From positions 100,793-132,792 of the forward strand of contig JAHHIB010000008.1 of NCBI GenBank assembly GCA_019359075.1: 32,000 nt of DNA, given 5' to 3'. This DNA comes from Kalymmatonema hyalinum WJT4-NPBG1. GTDB lineage: Bacteria > Cyanobacteriota > Cyanobacteriia > Cyanobacteriales > Nostocaceae. The notes below the pieces were generated by a model. It had not been told where the DNA came from. It saw only the letters and a program-made list of their open reading frames with translations, and did not search any database. Of this stretch, positions 23,055 through 32,000 are shown piece after piece (the stretch's first letter is position 1; the number at the start of each line of letters is the position of its first letter). Made by a program: the position numbers and the translations under genes.

Positions 23055-26000
23055 ATGATTCATTCAGTTGTCATCAATCTAGGATATGGTGATTTATACG
23101 AGGGATTTCCTGTTGTGACTGCTGGGTTGTGGGCATTAAATAATCCTCGTCCGCAGCAGTTTATCGGTAGTTTACCACCAGCGCCGAATTTGGTAGAGTT
23201 GTATCGAAATTGGCAATCGATGTATCAGAGTTTGTGCGATCGCCTTTGGCGGGGCGCAGCGCATCGCCTAGGAAGTGGATCGATTAGGAATTTGGCGAAT
23301 GATGATGATGAACTAGAAATTGATGAAGGTAATATCACGAATGTCTCTGTAGTAGATTTTAATGATTTGTGCCACCAGTTACAGCTAAGTATTGATAATT
23401 GGCTGGGATCACCAGGGATTACTGGTATTAGCCGACAGCTACGCGCTGCACTTCATCCCGCAGATGAAATACGGGTAATTATCGAAACTCAAGATATTAT
23501 TATCCAAAAATTACCTTGGCATTGTTGCAGTTTTTTTCAAGATTATCCGCGTTCAGAACTTTCTTTTTCGAGAACTGAATATAAACGCACTCCTAAGTTG
23601 CAATTGTCGCAAGTTCCCAGAAATCACGCAAGAATTTTGGCAATTTTAGGCAATTCTCAAGGTATTGATTTAGAAAGAGAACAGAGGTTTTTACAAAGTT
23701 TACCCGATGCAGAGATACAGCTAGTTGTCAAGCCTTCACGGAAAGAATTTAACGATAAACTTTGGGATTCTCAAGGTTGGGATATGCTCTTTTTTGCTGG
23801 GCATAGTCAAACTGAGGAGGAAACAGGAATAATTTATATTAATGAAAATCCGACCAATAATAGTTTGACGATTGAACAATTAACAGAAGCGTTAAAAGCG
23901 GCGATTGAGAAGGGTTTGCAACTAGCAATTTTTAATTCTTGCAATGGTTTAGGGTTGGCTCATGGCTTGGAAAAATTAAACCTGCCGACGACAATTGTTA
24001 TGCGCGAACCAGTGCCAAATCGCGTTGCAGAAGAATTTTTTAATTATTTTTTACAAGCGTTTGCGTTTGAACAAAAATCGTTGTATACGTCAGTACAGCA
24101 AGCGCGACGCAGACTACAAGGATTAGAAGATGATTTTCCCGGTGCGAGTTGGCTACCTGTAATTTTTATTAATCCCGCTGAAGAACCACCAAGTTGGGTG
24201 AATCTCAAGGAAAAATTTGCATCTCAAGCTATATTGAATCACACTCAAGTAGAAAGTAAAAAAAAGCGCCAGGATTGGGGAGAGGCGATTGATGTTTCGA
24301 TATTTTACGGACGTAATGACGAAATTAACATATTAAAAAGATGGATTGTGACGGATAATTGCCGATTAATTACAATAATTGGCATGGGTGGAATTGGAAA
24401 AACAGCTTTATCTGTCAAGTTAGCAGAACTGGTGGAAAATGAATTCGATTGTTTAATTTGGCGAAGCTTACGGAATGCGCCACCAGTAGAAGAATTATTG
24501 AGCGATTTAATCAGTTTTTTATCTCAAAAACATCAAATAGTTGTAGCAAATTCCTTAGATAAACAAATATCTCAATTAATCGAATGTCTGCGTGCTTCTC
24601 GCTGTTTAGTCGTGTTGGATAATCTCGAATCGATTTTACACAGCGATAAACAAGCCGAAAATTACCTTGAAGGATATGCAGGATACGGACAACTTTTGCA
24701 ATGTGTGGGAGATACTCGCCATCAAAGTTGTGTTTTAGTCACCAGTCGAGAAAAACCTAGAGGACTTGGCGCGAGGGAAGGCGATAATTTTCCAGTGCGA
24801 TCGCTGGCATTAAAAGGGTTAAATTCTCAAGAAGGAGAATTAATTTTAGTACAAAAAGGTTTATCGCCATCAGCAAGTCAAATAAACAGCTTAGTTGAGT
24901 CTTATGCTGGTAATCCGCTGGCGCTAAAGATTGCAGCAACGACAATTGAAGAATTATTTGCTGGTAGTATTACTGATTTTTTACAAGCAGGTACAATTAT
25001 CTTCGGCGATATTTTCGATTTACTCAGCCAGCAGTTTCACCGTATTTCGATTTTAGAAAAAGAAGTTATGTATTGGTTGGCGATTAATCGAGAGTGGCTA
25101 TCTTTAAAAGAGTTACAAGGCGATATTATTGATGTTGTCAAAACGCGAGATTTACTGACAGCTTTAGAGTCTTTACAATCGCGTTGCTTACTTGAAAATA
25201 AAGCAGGTAAGTTTACTCAGCAACCAGTAGTGATGGAATATGTCATTGAAGAATTAATCGAACAAGTTACCGAAGAGATTTCTACGGGAGAAATTCAAAT
25301 CCTGAATAAATATGCTTTAATTAAAGCCCAAAGCCAAGATTACCTCAGAAATGCTCAAATTGAATTTATTCTCAAACCAATTGCTGATAAACTATCAAAA
25401 TTTTGGGTACAAAACGAAACTATTCAAAAGCATTTAAATCAAATTTTATCGCAACTAAAATCCTCTACAATACCAAAAACGGGATATGCTGCAGGTAATA
25501 TAATTAATCTCTTGCGACAACTTGATATAGAACTAAATAACTATGACTTTTCTAATCTAAATATTTGGCAAGCTTACCTGCAAGGAATCAACTTACAACA
25601 AACAAACTTTGCTAATTCCGATTTAAGTAAATCAGTATTTACCCAAAGTTTAGGTAGTATTTTAGCAGCCAAATTCAGCCCCACAGGTAAATTATTAGCA
25701 ACAGCGATTGAGAATCAAATATATCTATGGGAAGTTGACAACATCAGACAATTACTTCAACTTGACGGTCATACAGCTTGGGTGCGATCGCTTGCATTAA
25801 GCCAGGATGGTAAAATCCTAGCGAGCGGTAGTCGCGATCGCACTATCAGGTTATGGAACGTCGAAAGCGGACAATGCTTGCAAATACTAACAGGTCATAC
25901 ATCAGATGTACAATCCGTTGCTTTTAGCCACGACGGTAACACTTTAGCTAGTGGTAGCAACGATAAAACTATCAGATTATGGAATATCTCAACCGGACAA

Positions 26001-27509
26001 TGTTTGCAGGTTTTCCGAGGACATACAAATAATCTCACCTTTGTCACTTTCCATCCCCACAAGGAAATATTAATTACTGCAAGTGTCGATAAAACCGTTA
26101 GATTGTGGGATATCCCAACTGGGGAATGTTTACAAATCTTCAATATTCCGATTAATTGGGAACTTGCTGTTGCTTTAAGTCACGACGGACAAACATTAGT
26201 TACCGGAAGCGATGGTAATACGGTAAAATTCTGGGATATATCCAGTGGTAAATGCATCAAAACTCTACCAGATTACAACAGCTTTGTCTGGACTGTAACT
26301 TTTAGTCACGACGATAAAACCATAGTTACTGGCAGCGAAGATAACACAATCAAAATTTGGGATATAGAGACTGGAGAATGTCTGCAAACCTTACATGAAC
26401 ATAACCAGCGAGTTTGGTTAGTTGATTTGCATCCAGACAATCAAACTTTACTGAGTATCAGCGAAGACCAAACTATCAAACTCTGGGATGTGCGATCGCA
26501 ACGCTGCTTAAAAACATTAAAAGGGTATAGCAACTGGATATTATCTCTCGCTTTTAGTCCAGATGGTCAAACATTAGCCAGCAGTTCCCAAGACCAGAAA
26601 ATTAGACTATGGGATATTAAAACAGGAAAATGCCACTCAATATTACAAGGACACGATAACTTAATATCTTCAGTCACCTTTGCTCCTCAACATATTAAAG
26701 ATTGTCTACTAGCTAGCGGTAGTGATGACAACACCATCAAACTGTGGAATCATCAAGGCGAATGCTTGAAAACACTCCGGGGACACGAGGCTTGGGTATA
26801 TTCAGTTGCTTTTAGTCCCCAGGGGAAAATTTTAGCTAGTGGTAGTCGTGACAATACTGTAAAACTTTGGGATTGGCGGACGGGTGAATGTTTGCACACT
26901 TTAGTCGGACATCAAAATAGAGTCAAATCAGTTGCCTTTAATCCTTTCAGTAACATATTAGCAAGCGGTAGTGATGACACAACCATCAAAATATGGGATG
27001 TCAATAATCGAACTTGCTTGCAGACACTGGTAGGACATCAAGATAGGCTTGATTGCGTAGTTTTCAGCCCCAATGCAAACATAATTGCAAGTGCTAGTTG
27101 CGACAAAACCATCAAACTATGGGATGTGAATACCGGGGAGTGTCTCCACACATTACAAGCACATACCCACCGTATCCGCATGGTAGCATTTAGTTCAGAT
27201 GGTCAGATTCTAGCTAGTTGTAGCGACGACCAAACAGTAAAACTATGGGATGCCAGTACAGGTAAACATATTAGAACATTGTCAGGACATGATAAAGCAG
27301 TATGGACGGTTGCAATTAGCCTCGATAATTGCATATTAGCCAGCGGTAGCGAAGACCAAACCATCAAACTTTGGCATCTGCAAACAGGTGAATGCTGGCA
27401 AACCTTAAGATGCAGTAGACCATATGAAGGTATGAATATTAACAATACTACTGGTTTAACAACTGCTCAGAAAACTATCTTAAAATCCTTGGGGGCAGTC
27501 GAAGAATAG
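23055..27509 (+). CDS. CHAT protease - NB-ARC/NACHT-type STAND NTPase - pentapeptide-like linker - 14 x WD40 protein (1484 aa)
   Basis: The CHAT region has a His/Cys dyad: MLFFAGHSQ (His codon 23802-23804) and LAIFNSCNGLG (Cys codon 23940-23942). Walker A IIGMGGIGKTALSVKLA (24381-24404); Walker B CLVVLDNLES; then VLVTSRE. Linker: NYDFSNLNIWQAYLQGINLQQTNFANSDLSKSVF. There are 14 repeats ending in xxLW(D/N/E/H)x with GH...SPDG/SHDG cores. Confidence 0.9.
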   Translation: MIHSVVINLGYGDLYEGFPVVTAGLWALNNPRPQQFIGSLPPAPNLVELYRNWQSMYQSLCDRLWRGAAHRLGSGSIRNLANDDDELEIDEGNITNVSVVDFNDLCHQLQLSIDNWLGSPGITGISRQLRAALHPADEIRVIIETQDIIIQKLPWHCCSFFQDYPRSELSFSRTEYKRTPKLQLSQVPRNHARILAILGNSQGIDLEREQRFLQSLPDAEIQLVVKPSRKEFNDKLWDSQGWDMLFFAGHSQTEEETGIIYINENPTNNSLTIEQLTEALKAAIEKGLQLAIFNSCNGLGLAHGLEKLNLPTTIVMREPVPNRVAEEFFNYFLQAFAFEQKSLYTSVQQARRRLQGLEDDFPGASWLPVIFINPAEEPPSWVNLKEKFASQAILNHTQVESKKKRQDWGEAIDVSIFYGRNDEINILKRWIVTDNCRLITIIGMGGIGKTALSVKLAELVENEFDCLIWRSLRNAPPVEELLSDLISFLSQKHQIVVANSLDKQISQLIECLRASRCLVVLDNLESILHSDKQAENYLEGYAGYGQLLQCVGDTRHQSCVLVTSREKPRGLGAREGDNFPVRSLALKGLNSQEGELILVQKGLSPSASQINSLVESYAGNPLALKIAATTIEELFAGSITDFLQAGTIIFGDIFDLLSQQFHRISILEKEVMYWLAINREWLSLKELQGDIIDVVKTRDLLTALESLQSRCLLENKAGKFTQQPVVMEYVIEELIEQVTEEISTGEIQILNKYALIKAQSQDYLRNAQIEFILKPIADKLSKFWVQNETIQKHLNQILSQLKSSTIPKTGYAAGNIINLLRQLDIELNNYDFSNLNIWQAYLQGINLQQTNFANSDLSKSVFTQSLGSILAAKFSPTGKLLATAIENQIYLWEVDNIRQLLQLDGHTAWVRSLALSQDGKILASGSRDRTIRLWNVESGQCLQILTGHTSDVQSVAFSHDGNTLASGSNDKTIRLWNISTGQCLQVFRGHTNNLTFVTFHPHKEILITASVDKTVRLWDIPTGECLQIFNIPINWELAVALSHDGQTLVTGSDGNTVKFWDISSGKCIKTLPDYNSFVWTVTFSHDDKTIVTGSEDNTIKIWDIETGECLQTLHEHNQRVWLVDLHPDNQTLLSISEDQTIKLWDVRSQRCLKTLKGYSNWILSLAFSPDGQTLASSSQDQKIRLWDIKTGKCHSILQGHDNLISSVTFAPQHIKDCLLASGSDDNTIKLWNHQGECLKTLRGHEAWVYSVAFSPQGKILASGSRDNTVKLWDWRTGECLHTLVGHQNRVKSVAFNPFSNILASGSDDTTIKIWDVNNRTCLQTLVGHQDRLDCVVFSPNANIIASASCDKTIKLWDVNTGECLHTLQAHTHRIRMVAFSSDGQILASCSDDQTVKLWDASTGKHIRTLSGHDKAVWTVAISLDNCILASGSEDQTIKLWHLQTGECWQTLRCSRPYEGMNINNTTGLTTAQKTILKSLGAVEE

Positions 27510-28136: not shown

Positions 28137-31100
28137 CTACTTGTTTACATTGTCACAGAGATGGCGATCGCTTTCCTCAACATCAGGGCTATGATTCAGA
28201 TAGTCACGCATCCAATTGCAAGCCCGTTCCATCAGTTCGTCAGATGATTGAATTGACCACGATTTAAAGCTACCATCGCTCCCCACAGTCGTCAGTAATT
28301 TACCATCTGAACTTAAACTAATGCTGTTAACAGCAGATTGTTTAGTCTGCCATGCTGCTAATGGTAATTGTTCTTTAGGGTCTTGCAAATTCCACAATAG
28401 TATGCGACCTGTGTGATCGCTGCTGATAATCCTTTGAGTGTCTGGGCTAAAAGTTACTGAGGTTATTCGGGGTCCATATATTTGAAATATTCTTTCCCCT
28501 TTACCTTGTAAATTCCATAAACGAATAGTACCGTCATCACCACCACTCACTATTTGCTTGCCATCTGAACTAAACGCTACACTGTTGACATCGCCCAAAT
28601 GATCTTCAAATGGTTTGCTCAAGGGTTGACCTTGCAAGTTCCACAAACGAATAGTACCGTCCTTACCACCACTCACTATTTTTTTACCATCTGGGCTAAA
28701 CGCCACACTCTTAACATCGCCCAAATGACCTTTAAATGGTTCCCCCAAGGATTGACCTTGCAAGTCCCACAAACGAATAGTACCGTCCTTACCACCACTC
28801 ACTATTTTTTTACCATCTGGGCTAAACGCCACACTCTTAACATCGCCCAAATGACCTTTAAATGGTTCGCCCAAAGGTTGACCTTGCAAGTCCCAAAAAC
28901 GAATAGTACCATCCTTACCACCACTAACTATTTTCTTACCATCCCTACTCAAACTAATCGCACTAACGCTGCTTGCATATTTTTTATTTTCAAACTTCTT
29001 TAATTCCCGACCTTGTAAATCCCAGATGCGAACCATCGTATCATCGCTGCTACTCGCCAATTGCTGACCATCTGGGCTAAAACTCACACTTCTAACTGGT
29101 CCTTTATGACCGACAAATTTCTCCAATTCCTGTTTAGGATCGACAAATTTCTCCAATTCCTGACCTTGCAAATTCCAAACCTTAACAGTACCGTTTCCTC
29201 CTGCGGTAGCCAATTGCTGACTATCCAAGCTGAATACTATATCCCAGAGTTTGTCTTGTTGTGCATTCCATTCTTCGACTAACTTACCCTGCAAGTTCCA
29301 CACTCGCACAAAGCCGTCTTCTCCAGTACTAGCAAGTAGTTGACCATCTGGGCTAAAACTAAGACCGCTTACAGGACCTTTATGACCTGCAATTTTTTTT
29401 AACTCCTGACCTTGAAAGTTCCACAACCGTATAGTGCTATCATCTGACGCGCTTGCTATTAGCTGACCATTCGGACTGAAACTAAGATTTTTGACTGGCT
29501 TTTGATGCCCTTTTAATTCTACTGATAACTCACCCTGCAAGTTCCATAAACTTACAGTACCGTTATTTGCTTCGCTAGCGACTAAGTTACCATCTGGACT
29601 AAACCCAATCCCCCACAATTTACCTTGTTGTGCATTCCATTCTTTGACTAACTCACCCTGTAAGTTCCACAAACGAACAAATCCGTCATCTCCAGCAGTT
29701 GCAACTAGCTGACCACTAGGGCTATATTTGATACTTCTTACCGAACCTTTGTGTTTTTCAAATCTCTGCAATTCCTTACCCTGCAAATTCCACAAGCGGG
29801 CTGTACCATCATCTCCACTGGTAGCCAATTGCTTACCATCTGGGCTAAACATCACACTTCTAACGGGGCGATCATAACCCTCTAGGCGGTTGCGTTCTCT
29901 AACAGTATAAACTGCTCGTTGCAGCGTTCCTTCTATTTGCTCCTGTAGCAGAGGAGGATTGAGTGGGAAGAATTTTAAAAGTCGTTTTTTAAGAGTATTT
30001 CCAGCTTGCAAAATTTTAATCATCCCATCCAAAGATTGATTATCATCCAAGCTTATTTCTGCCGATTCTCTCAATCTACTGGCTTCTCTTATCTGTGATC
30101 TTCCTAGAAAAAACAAAAGTCCAAGAGCCAACCCGCTTAAACCCAGGATTACGCCAATAGCAATCCGCCACCGCCAACTTACGTTTCGACGTTTTTGCAA
30201 AACACTACGCCCGACAAACTCAGCTTCTAACTTGTTAAACCAATTTTGCTGGGAGTTGAGTTGCTCATTTAAGACATCAAGATAAGGATTACCATTCCAA
30301 AGAAATTCTGCTGGTTTTTCTTTTGAAGACTTCTGCTGATTAGATTGCGATCGCCTCCACAGTCGAATCAACTCGGTATCGGTTTTGCTAAGTAAGTTTT
30401 CAACGGCGTAGAGTTGGCGATCCAACCAATCGATCGCAGGTTCAACCTTGGCTGGAAAACCGGATGGTTGTTCCTTGCTTTTAACACTTTGCCACTCCAC
30501 CGCAGCTGGTGTCAGTCGCCGTTGTAAAATTAAACTTTCTTCCTCATCTTGTTTCCACAGCAGCAGCTTTTGCCAACCCCGTACCAAAGCATCATGGGCT
30601 GGTTCCACATAAGGTTTACCTTCAGCGTCTTGTCCTTCTACCAGTAGACGCGCATCTGTAAAACGCCGAATCACCTCTTTGATGCGGGTATTTTCCGGTT
30701 CGGGATACTCTAGTTCGGATAAAGGTACCCGTCTACGCGCCAAATCTGGACTACCCACCGCCACCATCCGCAGCATCACCTTACGGATAGTACTAACATA
30801 TGCCGTATTTTTTTTAACTAAATTATCATATTCCCAGTCTGCTCTTTGGGTGAGACTGCGCGTTACTCCTCCCAATTGTTCGTAATCTGCTTGAGTAATT
30901 ACTCGGTCGCTTCTTGTACCTTCCCTGACACTCTTTAAGTACTTCAAATACAATTCGCTTAAGGTAAAAGAAAGTAACGGTAACGCCCCTGGCATCTGGG
31001 CTACTTCATCAATTAACTGTTCTACCAAACTGTGCGGCTCAAAATACATTACCCGCGCTGAGGCTGGTTCCTCAATGCAAGCGCGTAATTCCTCCCGCGT

Positions 31101-32000
31101 CATTGCTGGAACAATAAACCGAGATGAATACCAATATGGTTCTAAGGCTGAGTTGGACAATTGAGATTCAAAGTCACTACGTAGTGTCAGTACAATTCGT
31201 AATTTTTCTGAATAATTAGCTACTAAATTAGCCAAGAGTTTGAGAAAGCCTTCCCGCTCTTGCTCGTTGCGACACAAGGTAAGCAATTCTTCTGCCTGGT
31301 CAATGACTAGCATTAATTTTGACTGAGGATTTTGCTGCAACCAAGTCGAAATATGATCCTCAGTATTAACTAATAATTTATCTACCGCTAATGTATTATT
31401 TAAAGCTTTTAACGGCGACTCCCCAGGACGCATAGGTGTAAGGATATGCCATTGTACATTTAACTGTTTGATGTAAGGTATCAATCCCGCTTTCACCAAA
31501 CTGGATTTTCCGGTTCCCGAAGCAGCCAACACTACTGTTAACGGTTGTTTGCAAACTTGTTGATACAATTGTTCTGTTAAAGCTTGTCTGCCGAAAAATA
31601 GTTGACTGTGTTCCTCATCAAAAGCTTGCAAACCACGATAGGGATTTTGTGACTCATCTAAAGGTGGCGCGGGTGGTAAATTTAGTTCGTGTTCGGGGGA
31701 AAGAAAGATATACTCGCCTTTATCGTGCTTGTTTAAACACCAAATACCAGGTGTTTGACGCAAACGGTATTTTTCGGTAGGAATTTCCACTCTATCCCGT
31801 AAATATAAATATAGTTCGGTAGCAGTAATCACCCCATCCCCAGCAGATTTACCAGGTTGAGGGGGAGGATAGATATCTGCTGCACCTTCGAGGGCTTCTA
31901 ATAATGCAGCAGCAAAAGGTGAATAATTACCGACTTGACCGCGTTGGGTATCCAGGGTAAGCGCAAGAAAAAATGAGCCAAAAGATGCTAGACCCGACAT
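28137..32000 (-). CDS. Caspase-like (peptidase C14) C-terminal part - P-loop STAND NTPase - single TM helix - about 13 x WD40; 5' end probably beyond the window
   Basis: N-terminal ...FLALTLDTQRGQVGNYSPFAAALLEALEGAAD...GDGVITATELYLYLRDRV...RQTPGIW matches the p10-like end of bacterial C14 caspase domains. NPYRGLQAFDEEHSQLFFGRQ plus Walker A LAASGTGKSSLVKAGLIP (about 31503-31526) and Walker B LMLVIDQAEEL form the NTPase. TM helix: WRWRIAIGVILGLSGLALGLLFFLG (about 30109-30178). WD40 repeats carry the recurring 'WNLQG' motif. Confidence 0.85.
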   Translation of the reverse strand: MSGLASFGSFFLALTLDTQRGQVGNYSPFAAALLEALEGAADIYPPPQPGKSAGDGVITATELYLYLRDRVEIPTEKYRLRQTPGIWCLNKHDKGEYIFLSPEHELNLPPAPPLDESQNPYRGLQAFDEEHSQLFFGRQALTEQLYQQVCKQPLTVVLAASGTGKSSLVKAGLIPYIKQLNVQWHILTPMRPGESPLKALNNTLAVDKLLVNTEDHISTWLQQNPQSKLMLVIDQAEELLTLCRNEQEREGFLKLLANLVANYSEKLRIVLTLRSDFESQLSNSALEPYWYSSRFIVPAMTREELRACIEEPASARVMYFEPHSLVEQLIDEVAQMPGALPLLSFTLSELYLKYLKSVREGTRSDRVITQADYEQLGGVTRSLTQRADWEYDNLVKKNTAYVSTIRKVMLRMVAVGSPDLARRRVPLSELEYPEPENTRIKEVIRRFTDARLLVEGQDAEGKPYVEPAHDALVRGWQKLLLWKQDEEESLILQRRLTPAAVEWQSVKSKEQPSGFPAKVEPAIDWLDRQLYAVENLLSKTDTELIRLWRRSQSNQQKSSKEKPAEFLWNGNPYLDVLNEQLNSQQNWFNKLEAEFVGRSVLQKRRNVSWRWRIAIGVILGLSGLALGLLFFLGRSQIREASRLRESAEISLDDNQSLDGMIKILQAGNTLKKRLLKFFPLNPPLLQEQIEGTLQRAVYTVRERNRLEGYDRPVRSVMFSPDGKQLATSGDDGTARLWNLQGKELQRFEKHKGSVRSIKYSPSGQLVATAGDDGFVRLWNLQGELVKEWNAQQGKLWGIGFSPDGNLVASEANNGTVSLWNLQGELSVELKGHQKPVKNLSFSPNGQLIASASDDSTIRLWNFQGQELKKIAGHKGPVSGLSFSPDGQLLASTGEDGFVRVWNLQGKLVEEWNAQQDKLWDIVFSLDSQQLATAGGNGTVKVWNLQGQELEKFVDPKQELEKFVGHKGPVRSVSFSPDGQQLASSSDDTMVRIWDLQGRELKKFENKKYASSVSAISLSRDGKKIVSGGKDGTIRFWDLQGQPLGEPFKGHLGDVKSVAFSPDGKKIVSGGKDGTIRLWDLQGQSLGEPFKGHLGDVKSVAFSPDGKKIVSGGKDGTIRLWNLQGQPLSKPFEDHLGDVNSVAFSSDGKQIVSGGDDGTIRLWNLQGKGERIFQIYGPRITSVTFSPDTQRIISSDHTGRILLWNLQDPKEQLPLAAWQTKQSAVNSISLSSDGKLLTTVGSDGSFKSWSIQSSDELMERACNWMRDYLNHSPDVEESDRHLCDNVNK
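28515..29018 (-). repeat. Intragenic 126-bp tandem repeats (WD40 units); two adjacent copies are nearly identical
   Basis: Units starting at 28641 and 28767 differ at only about 3-4 of 126 positions by my manual comparison. Flanking units (28515, 28893) are more diverged. They encode KIVSGGKDGTIRLWDLQGQ(S/P)LGEPFKGHLGDVKSVAFSPDGK. Confidence 0.85.

What the first reader, a model, noticed from the sequence alone, without database searches (positions are those of the whole stretch)
28137..32000. Caspase-like STAND NTPase with a transmembrane helix between the NTPase and the WD40 sensor
After the NTPase/helical region, the sequence ...RRNVSWRWRIAIGVILGLSGLALGLLFFLGRSQIRE (about 30109-30178) is a clear single hydrophobic helix of ~22 residues. 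About 13 WD40 repeats follow. If the helix spans the membrane, the WD40 propellers and the caspase-NTPase module lie on opposite sides. That would be an NLR-like receptor wired for extracytoplasmic sensing, unlike cytosolic Avs/bNACHT paradigms. The catalytic His/Cys of the caspase domain lie upstream of the window: the sequence begins MSG..., plausibly just after the active-site Cys. Activity therefore cannot be judged here.
Basis: partly seen in the sequence, partly recalled or inferred. Interest (0 to 1): 0.62.

Follow-up and report, generated by a model that had tools for sequence, protein, structure and literature searches.

The report
Broken membrane-anchored caspase–STAND–WD40 gene
This is a transposon-disrupted copy of a common cyanobacterial gene family in which a caspase and an ATPase switch sit inside the cell and a WD40 "sensor" most likely sits outside the inner membrane; the membrane helix is real and conserved, but this layout and its outside-sensing interpretation are already in the literature.

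Summary
The hydrophobic helix is real (aa 597-617 of the gene-derived protein, window 30102-30164, minus strand). It is the only such segment in the protein. It is conserved in 119 of 120 homologues, and 110 of 127 long relatives at 50% identity clustering have a comparable helix after the NTPase. A strongly basic N-flank (SVLQKRRNxSWRWR) predicts NTPase inside and WD40 outside. AlphaFold2 does not pack the helix into a domain. Cysteine patterns fit an exported WD40 array, as suggestive evidence only.

Two corrections apply. First, "MSGLASFGSFFLALTL" is not gene sequence. It is the end of a multi-copy mobile element whose outer end resembles ISAs1-type elements. The element cuts the caspase domain about 53 residues after the catalytic Cys. 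A second repeat sits about 30 nt before the expected start codon. The His/Cys-bearing 5' part is absent from the assembly, so this copy is probably a pseudogene.

Second, the idea is not new. TMHMM surveys of cyanobacterial (ortho)caspases catalogued the helix in 2012. A 2020 review explicitly proposed a cytoplasmic p20/AAA domain with an extracellular WD40. Earlier follow-ups in this scan reported the same nSTAND1-TM-WD40 layout in at least six other genomes.

No experiment has tested the topology. Verdict: an ordinary, broken member of a known family.

The parts
31953..32000 (-). Outer end of a multi-copy mobile element (continues 78 nt to the contig end). It supplies the in-frame ATG and the 16 residues MSGLASFGSFFLALTL.
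   Evidence: 126 nt are 100% identical at six contig ends with unrelated flanks. The outer ~38-40 nt match element ends in a relative at 89-98%, and one of those abuts ISAs1-type transposase ORFs (DDE_Tnp_1_assoc + DDE_Tnp_1).
31668..31952 (-). Remnant of the Peptidase_C14 (caspase/orthocaspase) domain. It covers only the C-terminal part (DTQRGQVGNYSPFAAALLEAL...); the His and Cys are missing.
   Evidence: Aligns to residues 187 onward of the intact orthologue P0003, whose aa 4-258 match PF00656 (E 1.9e-22). The remnant alone gives no Pfam hit.
30474..31643 (-). nSTAND1 NTPase domain, with Walker A AASGTGKSS (31500-31526) and Walker B LMLVIDQAEE (31287-31316).
   Evidence: PF20703 E 1.2e-103, 348 bits against a cut-off of 27.1. 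AlphaFold2 pLDDT is mostly 80-95.
30306..30473 (-). Low-complexity, probably disordered linker.
   Evidence: AlphaFold2 pLDDT below 50 for model residues 395-450.
30165..30233 (-). Conserved juxtamembrane helix ending in the basic cluster SVLQKRRNVSWRWR.
   Evidence: E577, F579 and S583 are invariant. K/R averages 5.1 in the 15 residues before the helix against 2.5 after it.
30102..30164 (-). Single predicted transmembrane helix, IAIGVILGLSGLALGLLFFLG.
   Evidence: Kyte-Doolittle 2.49 and a scale sum of -1.84. It is the only such segment in the protein and is conserved as IAIAVILGLSGLTIAALIG in 119 of 120 homologues.
29913..30101 (-). Helical stalk between the membrane helix and the first WD40 blade.
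   Evidence: AlphaFold2 helices 508-537, 541-556, 558-562 and 567-584. The sequence is conserved in the family consensus.
28254..29912 (-). Thirteen cysteine-free WD40 repeats forming two beta-propellers. Two adjacent units are near-identical (28638-28889) and there is a 10-residue duplication (29112-29159).
   Evidence: Pfam WD40 E 2.4e-131. Repeat list. AlphaFold2 pLDDT above 90. Foldseek finds 2ymu_A and Apaf-1.
28140..28253 (-). Conserved C-terminal tail with the only two cysteines after the helix (C1245 at 28218-28220, C1266 at 28155-28157). They are a candidate disulfide.
   Evidence: Both Cys columns are at least 90% conserved in 91 aligned sequences. The motif CxWxRDYLxxNxxxxESDRHLC recurs in most homologue tails.

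Best explanation
The frame is a mobile-element-disrupted copy of the cyanobacterial orthocaspase-nSTAND1-TM-WD40 family. [quoted passage not shown] A flexible linker and a basic juxtamembrane helix lead to one membrane-spanning helix that acts as an internal signal-anchor. A helical stalk, two WD40 propellers and a two-cysteine tail lie on the far side of the cytoplasmic membrane, most likely in the periplasm.

Inferred mechanism, none of it shown: a ligand bound by the outside propellers promotes clustering or rearrangement of the helices. That lets the cytoplasmic nSTAND1 domains oligomerise with nucleotide, and the attached caspase domains are activated by proximity.

In this genome the gene is cut inside the caspase domain by an element whose outer end resembles ISAs1-type elements. 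A second repeat lies just upstream of the start. What remains cannot encode an active caspase and is most likely a pseudogene. At best it is an effector-less chimeric ORF starting at an ATG inside the element.
For: Disruption:
- Identical 126-nt ends occur on six contigs.
- Colinearity with the 94% orthologue stops exactly at the repeat boundary. tblastn finds only residues 184-230 of the orthologue's N-terminus in this genome.
- The orthologue's upstream neighbour lies on contig C137. Its homology ends ~30 nt before the expected start codon, in a second repeat with at least 37 copies.

Family:
- PF20703, WD40 and PF00656 are present in the orthologues. YFAGHG and LDCCFAG are nearly invariant.

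Membrane helix:
- It is the unique hydrophobic 21-mer in the protein.
- It is present in 119 of 120 homologues and in 110 of 127 long representatives at 50% identity.
- K/R is higher on the N-side in 102 of 110 homologues and 104 of 110 representatives, with 1 and 0 reversed.
- AlphaFold2 gives pLDDT below 50 around the helix while both flanking domains exceed 90, with pTM 0.56.

Outside location of the WD40 part:
- The post-helix region has an even cysteine count in 100 of 118 homologues, against 56 of 118 for the pre-helix region.
- In this genome, WD40 arrays behind a helix carry 0-2 Cys, while NB-ARC-type arrays without a helix carry 16-21.
- nSTAND1 paralogues with a helix have 2,2,2,2,2,2,6 Cys after it. 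Those without have 5,3,5.

The same topology was proposed from TMHMM in PMC7475262 and PMC3501461.
Against: No experiment on any family member is known to me or was found.
- No dedicated topology predictor (TMHMM, DeepTMHMM, Phobius) was available. The orientation rests on the positive-inside rule and hydropathy.
- The cysteine evidence is weak in places. Homologues are not independent. The cysteine-free WD40 array is also seen in two helix-less nSTAND1 paralogues (C104, C132). Among 17 representatives scored as helix-less, 12 also have even counts.
- Known STAND and Apaf-1 autoinhibition uses direct contact between sensor and NTPase, which a membrane between them would forbid. The signalling step is therefore pure inference.
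- The insertion was inferred from an assembly filtered to contigs of at least 10 kb.
- The element's family assignment rests on ~38 nt of end similarity.
Confidence: 0.72

Rival explanations
1. The helix spans the thylakoid membrane rather than the plasma membrane, so the WD40 propellers face the thylakoid lumen.
For: Cyanobacteria have two Sec-competent membrane systems. All sequence evidence here shows only that the C-terminal part is extracytoplasmic, not which compartment it is in.
Against: Nothing in the sequence points to the thylakoid. The same nSTAND1-helix layout gives family matches in control genomes without thylakoids (Bacteroides, Corynebacterium), and the scan notes report it in Bacteroidota (unchecked).
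Confidence: 0.1
2. The hydrophobic segment is not membrane-spanning in the resting state, so both halves are cytoplasmic. It would be a buried oligomerisation helix, or a latent membrane-inserting element released on activation.
For: STAND regulation normally needs contact between sensor and NTPase. Helix-less paralogues with otherwise the same architecture exist in the same genome (C104, C132). Their WD40 arrays are also cysteine-free, so cysteine depletion may be lineage inertia.
Against: A 20-residue uncharged I/L/V/A/G stretch (Kyte-Doolittle 2.5, scale sum -1.84) is conserved with a 5-6 K/R cluster on one side only in more than 200 diverse relatives. AlphaFold2 does not pack it against either domain.
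Confidence: 0.08
3. The interruption is not fixed: the element is present in only part of the sequenced population, or the contig break misrepresents the locus. An intact, functional gene would then exist in this organism.
For: The assembly holds only contigs of at least 10 kb, and nearly every contig end lies in a repeat family. Reads could not be examined.
Against: The contig runs 126 nt into sequence shared with five unrelated loci, and homology to the orthologue stops exactly there. The upstream contig also ends in a different repeat. The 5' 555-590 nt are found nowhere in the 8.4 Mb held.
Confidence: 0.12

Closest known systems
Membrane-bound cyanobacterial orthocaspases with a p20 - (AAA_16) - TM - WD40 architecture, e.g. 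Ava_0039, Ava_3079, GEI7407_1667 (Bhattacharjee & Mishra 2020, PMC7475262; catalogued as 'iTMHo' architectures by Asplund-Samuelsson et al. 2012, PMC3501461)
   Same: Same domain order, the same single helix between the NTPase and the WD40, and the same proposed topology (cytoplasmic protease and ATPase, extracellular WD40) and 'extrinsic death signal' idea. Many homologues here also carry the AAA_16 hit (PF13191) alongside PF20703.
   Different: This copy is cut by a mobile element and lacks the catalytic half of p20. I did not align it directly to the named Ava or GEI proteins. The published proposal is a TMHMM-based inference without experiments. The positive-inside statistics, cysteine pattern and AlphaFold2 model are added here.
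nSTAND1 clade of STAND NTPases (Pfam PF20703; Kaur, Iyer, Burroughs & Aravind 2021, PMC8195603)
   Same: Strong full-length match to the family model with Walker A and B motifs. N-terminal effector (caspase) plus C-terminal repeat sensor, as described for these predicted conflict systems.
   Different: That paper discusses the associated lectin-type sensors as intracellular. In the passages I read it does not mention a membrane helix after the NTPase. Here most relatives have one.
Apaf-1 / apoptosome (PDB 3sfz, 5juy)
   Same: An NTPase followed by two WD40 propellers. Foldseek aligns the model to full-length Apaf-1 over ~1290 columns (TM-score 0.40, 18% identity). The output is a caspase.
   Different: A different STAND clade (nSTAND1, not NB-ARC). 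The caspase is fused rather than recruited by a CARD. A membrane helix separates the switch from the sensor, so the Apaf-1 mode of WD40-on-NTPase autoinhibition cannot apply as such.
Avs / bNACHT cytosolic antiphage STANDs
   Same: The effector - STAND NTPase - repeat sensor logic.
   Different: Only a P-loop-level match to Avs4 (20-23 bits against a curated cut-off of 1500). The sensor is predicted to be extracytoplasmic. No phage-defence evidence exists.
Highly repetitive WD40 propeller of Nostoc punctiforme (PDB 2ymu)
   Same: Best structural match for the sensor (E 9e-55, 37% identity). Similar two-propeller array with recently amplified, near-identical blades.
   Different: Only the propeller part was solved, so it says nothing about membrane topology.

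Membership tests
nSTAND1 (PF20703) | Match to the family profile above the curated cut-off | tested here: met
   348.1 bits against 27.1, E 1.2e-103, profile positions 1-377 of 379.
nSTAND1 (PF20703) | Intact P-loop NTPase motifs (Walker A GxxGxGKS, Walker B hhhhD) | tested here: met
   AASGTGKSS and LMLVIDQAEE are present. G47, G49, K50, S51, D119, Q120 and E122 are invariant in the 91-sequence alignment.
Peptidase_C14 (caspase/orthocaspase) | p20 region with the catalytic His-Cys dyad | tested here: not met
   The His (YFAGHG) and Cys (LDCCFAG) of the orthologues lie in the first 186 residues. These are absent from this frame and from the whole assembly. The remnant gives no PF00656 hit.
Peptidase_C14 (caspase/orthocaspase) | Homology of the remaining N-terminal part to the C-terminal part of the domain in intact family members | tested here: met
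   93.6% identity to residues 184-230 of P0003, whose aa 4-258 match PF00656 at E 1.9e-22.
WD40 beta-propeller | Tandem WD40 repeats folding as propellers | tested here: met
   12 Pfam stretches, E 2.4e-131. 13 repeats by eye. AlphaFold2 four-strand blades with pLDDT above 90. Foldseek 2ymu_A E 9e-55.
Membrane-bound orthocaspase with extracellular WD40 (PMC7475262) | A single transmembrane helix between the cytoplasmic module and the WD40 | tested here: met
   Unique hydrophobic 21-mer, conserved across homologues. No dedicated predictor was available.
Membrane-bound orthocaspase with extracellular WD40 (PMC7475262) | N-in / C-out orientation, demonstrated experimentally | not testable with these tools
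   Only indirect evidence: the positive-inside rule and cysteine parity and depletion.
Avs4 / AVAST | Match above the NCBIfam equivalog cut-off | tested here: not met
   22.7 bits against a cut-off of 1500, covering the P-loop region only.
ISAs1-family insertion sequence (the interrupting element) | Element encodes a DDE_Tnp_1_assoc + DDE_Tnp_1 transposase | tested here: inconclusive
   The element's body is not in the assembly. Only its outer ~38 nt match ends of copies in another genome, one of which abuts such a transposase. No match in the plasmid collection.

The most novel reading that the evidence does not exclude
The large majority of the nSTAND1 family, tens of thousands of clusters, would be true transmembrane NLR-like receptors whose WD40 or lectin sensors work in the periplasm. 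In filamentous cyanobacteria the periplasm is shared between cells (established knowledge, not tested here). Caspase-type members could then sense a diffusible or envelope-borne danger or death signal along the filament and trigger caspase activity inside each cell, a bacterial 'extrinsic' death pathway. The paired C-terminal cysteines would form a disulfide that marks the exported state.
Probability: 0.5. Interest if true: 0.55.

Novelty: already known. Interest (0 to 1): 0.22.

Why it matters
If the topology is right, this family is a bacterial counterpart of receptor-type death signalling, with sensing outside the cytoplasm and a protease inside. That differs mechanistically from all characterised cytosolic bacterial STAND and Avs systems. 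The family is very large: 43,760 clusters at 50% identity hit the query at E <= 0.001. It is also entirely untested. However, that significance belongs to the family and has been pointed out before. This particular locus adds only a broken copy. It also gives a small cautionary example that contig-end ORF starts can be mobile-element sequence.

Tried and rejected
1. Extending the gene 5'. The contig ends 78 nt past the window inside the repeat. The missing 5' part is not in any held contig of at least 10 kb.
2. A caspase N-terminal fragment on contig C26 (34244-34504) was considered as the missing half. It was rejected because it lies mid-contig, is only distantly related, and is truncated by a different small repeat.
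3. Identifying the element. There was no hit in the plasmid collection. Relatives gave only short end matches. One of these (L008) has no transposase beside it and looks like a solo end or miniature element.
6. Sequence search of the PDB with the nSTAND1 domain found nothing meaningful.
7. Cysteine parity as a discriminator between helix-bearing and helix-less representatives was not clean: 12 of 17 'helix-less' ones are also even. It is reported as suggestive only.
Full report
**What is there.** The minus strand of window 28137-32000 carries a 1287-codon frame that runs off the window. Pfam finds nSTAND1 (PF20703, E 1.2e-103, aa 120-509) and 12 WD40 stretches. Splitting by hand gives 13 WD40 repeats followed by a 38-residue tail. 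The window is C164:100793-132792 of an 8.4-Mb, 174-contig assembly, and contig C164 ends only 78 nt beyond the window. Homologues are from Nostocales and other filamentous cyanobacteria.

**The N-terminus is not what it seems.**
- The last 126 nt of the contig (window 31953-32000 plus 78 nt) are 100% identical to the ends of five other contigs (C42, C75, C77, C79, C94). The adjoining sequences of those contigs are unrelated to each other.
- The 16 residues MSGLASFGSFFLALTL are translated from this shared sequence.
- The 94%-identical orthologue P0003 (1456 aa) reads ...DQKALDNFNL|DTQRGQVGNHSPF... at this point. Colinearity therefore stops exactly at the repeat boundary.
- P0003 residues 4-258 are a complete Peptidase_C14 domain (E 1.9e-22). 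Its His is at 82 (YFAGHG) and its Cys pair at 133/134 (LDCCFAG). Both motifs are nearly invariant in a 91-sequence alignment.
- In this genome tblastn finds only residues 184-230 of that N-terminus. The break is thus about 53 residues after the catalytic Cys, and the catalytic half is missing.
- The outer ~38-40 nt of the repeat match element ends in another cyanobacterial genome of the same order at 89-98%. One of those ends abuts ORFs with DDE_Tnp_1_assoc and DDE_Tnp_1 domains, the ISAs1-type combination. The family assignment is tentative.

**The other side of the break.**
- In relatives the gene is preceded by a Peptidase_C14-DUF7379-lipase-like gene. It is followed, convergently, by a CHAT-NB-ARC-WD40 gene. 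The latter is the neighbour at window 23055-27509.
- The orthologue of the upstream gene is on contig C137 (94.8% identity).
- DNA homology there ends ~30 nt before the expected start codon, where a different repeat with at least 37 copies begins.
- The first ~590 nt of the gene are thus bracketed by two mobile or repeated elements and are absent from the contigs held (all at least 10 kb).
- This copy cannot make an active caspase. The element end happens to provide an in-frame ATG, so an effector-less chimeric protein is conceivable but unsupported.

**The helix.**
- IAIGVILGLSGLALGLLFFLG (aa 597-617 of the gene-derived protein P0001; window 30102-30164) has a Kyte-Doolittle 19-mer mean of 2.49.
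- Its simple sum on the biological hydrophobicity scale is -1.84 kcal/mol, using scale values recalled from Hessa et al. 2005. The next best 21-mer in the protein scores +7.8.
- It is preceded by a conserved helix ending in SVLQKRRNVSWRWR.
- Of 120 homologues (57-94% identity), 119 have the homologous segment (consensus IAIAVILGLSGLTIAALIG). It is essentially the only hydrophobic segment in these proteins.
- The 15 residues before it average 5.1 K/R and 0.35 D/E. The 15 after it average 2.5 K/R and 1.25 D/E. K/R is higher on the N-side in 102 of 110, equal in 7 and lower in 1.
- A profile-free search of 1.84 billion representatives gave 43,760 hits at E <= 0.001.
- Among the best 146 of those, 127 have more than 700 residues after Walker A. 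Of these, 110 have a helix 350-550 residues after it. K/R is higher on the N-side in 104, equal in 6 and never lower.
- In this genome 7 of 10 evaluable nSTAND1 paralogues have such a helix.
- By the positive-inside rule the NTPase side is cytoplasmic. This is also required for an ATPase.

**Structure prediction.**
- AlphaFold2 on aa 100-1271 with the 91-sequence alignment gave mean pLDDT 84.7 and pTM 0.56.
- The NTPase and two propellers are confident (mostly above 90).
- Model residues 395-450 (linker) and 494-509 (start of the hydrophobic helix) fall below 50.
- The segment is drawn as part of a helical connection (475-500, 508-537) rather than packed into either domain.
- This fits a membrane helix and argues against a buried soluble helix.
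- Foldseek's best matches are the Nostoc repetitive propeller 2ymu_A (37% identity) and full-length Apaf-1 (3sfz, ~1290 columns, TM-score 0.40).
- No solved relative of the nSTAND1 domain is detectable by sequence.

**Cysteines as an independent hint of export.**
- After the helix this protein has exactly two cysteines, both in the C-terminal tail (C1245, C1266). Both columns are at least 90% conserved.
- In 118 homologues the post-helix region has an even number of Cys in 100 (2 in 61, 4 in 25). The pre-helix region is even in 56 of 118. Cys density is 0.41% after the helix and 0.83% before it.
- In this genome, WD40 arrays lying 30-125 residues behind a hydrophobic helix carry 0-2 Cys (0.3%). 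The helix-less NB-ARC-type arrays, including the neighbour gene, carry 16-21 (2.7-3.6%).
- nSTAND1 paralogues with a helix have 2,2,2,2,2,2,6 Cys after it. The three without have 5,3,5.
- Paired or absent cysteines are what is expected of proteins folding in an oxidising compartment (established knowledge).
- Caveats: the sequences are related. The blades of the two helix-less caspase-nSTAND1-WD40 paralogues (C104, C132) are also cysteine-free. In the representative set, 12 of 17 proteins scored helix-less also have even counts. I therefore treat this as supportive, not decisive.

**Comparison with what is known.**
- nSTAND1 was named by Kaur et al. 2021 (PMC8195603) as a STAND clade of predicted counter-invader systems with caspase and other effectors. 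The passages I read speak of intracellular sensing and do not mention the helix.
- Asplund-Samuelsson et al. 2012 (PMC3501461) ran TMHMM on all prokaryotic metacaspases. They introduced 'iTMHo' for helices with intracellular N-terminal and extracellular C-terminal domains.
[quoted passage not shown] They list Ava_0039, Ava_3079 and others with an AAA_16 domain before the helix, and they draw an 'extrinsic' death-signal model.
- Doré et al. 2024 (PMC10907252) likewise predict periplasmic sensors for some STAND targets of diversity-generating retroelements.
- Notes from this scan report the nSTAND1-TM-WD40 layout in at least six other genomes. These notes are unchecked AI notes. My own counts agree that the layout is typical.
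- The match to Avs4 models is only at P-loop level (20-23 bits against a cut-off of 1500).

**Mechanism.**
- Shown: domain order, conservation of the helix and its charge asymmetry, intact dyad in orthologues, and disruption here.
- Inferred: N-in/C-out insertion in the plasma membrane, a disulfide in the tail, ligand binding by the outside propellers, helix- or stalk-mediated clustering, nucleotide-dependent nSTAND1 oligomerisation, and proximity activation of the caspase.
- The membrane precludes the Apaf-1-style clamp of WD40 on the NTPase, so the coupling must differ. This is the weakest step.

**Verdict.** Interest is low for this locus. The family as a whole remains an attractive target for a first topology and function experiment.

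Noticed in passing
G000 contig C137:1-121 (outside the window; upstream side of the same locus): A second repeat with at least 37 identical copies at contig ends begins ~30 nt before where this gene's start codon should be. The 5' ~590 nt of the gene are therefore bracketed by two different mobile or repeated elements.
   Followed up: partly
window 31953-32000 plus 78 nt beyond (L001:3454-3579): The element end carries an ATG in frame with the truncated gene, after an in-frame TGA. This creates a chimeric 1287-codon ORF that gene callers will annotate as a protein (it is P0002 in the protein collection).
   Followed up: partly
window 28638-28889: Two adjacent 42-residue WD40 units (aa 1022-1063 and 1064-1105 of P0001) are almost identical, and a third is close. 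This looks like recent blade amplification, as in the Nostoc repetitive propeller 2ymu.
   Followed up: no
window 29112-29159: A tandem 10-residue duplication, ELEKFVDPKQ-ELEKFVGH, lies inside one WD40 blade. AlphaFold2 pLDDT drops below 50 there (model residues 839-846).
   Followed up: no
G000 C104:19003-23240 and C132:~116650-120850: Two caspase-nSTAND1-WD40 paralogues in the same genome lack the hydrophobic helix and its basic flank but keep the stalk-like helix and cysteine-free blades. These natural helix-less counterparts are useful for comparison. The broken gene is the only helix-bearing caspase-type nSTAND1 copy seen in this assembly.
   Followed up: partly
G000 C26:34244-34504: An orphan 104-codon N-terminal caspase fragment ends just after the SGHG histidine motif. 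It is followed by small palindromic repeat sequence, so it is another decayed caspase gene.
   Followed up: no
L012 and L013 (orthologous loci in relatives); window 23055-27509: The locus is a conserved island of death-fold genes: C14-DUF7379-lipase-like, one to three tandem caspase-nSTAND1-TM-WD40 genes, and a convergent CHAT-NB-ARC-WD40 gene.
   Followed up: partly
whole assembly G000: Nearly all 174 contigs end in one of about 25 repeat families (the largest with 37, 30 and 16 members). The genome is heavily loaded with mobile elements, and other contig-end ORFs may be chimeric in the same way.
   Followed up: no
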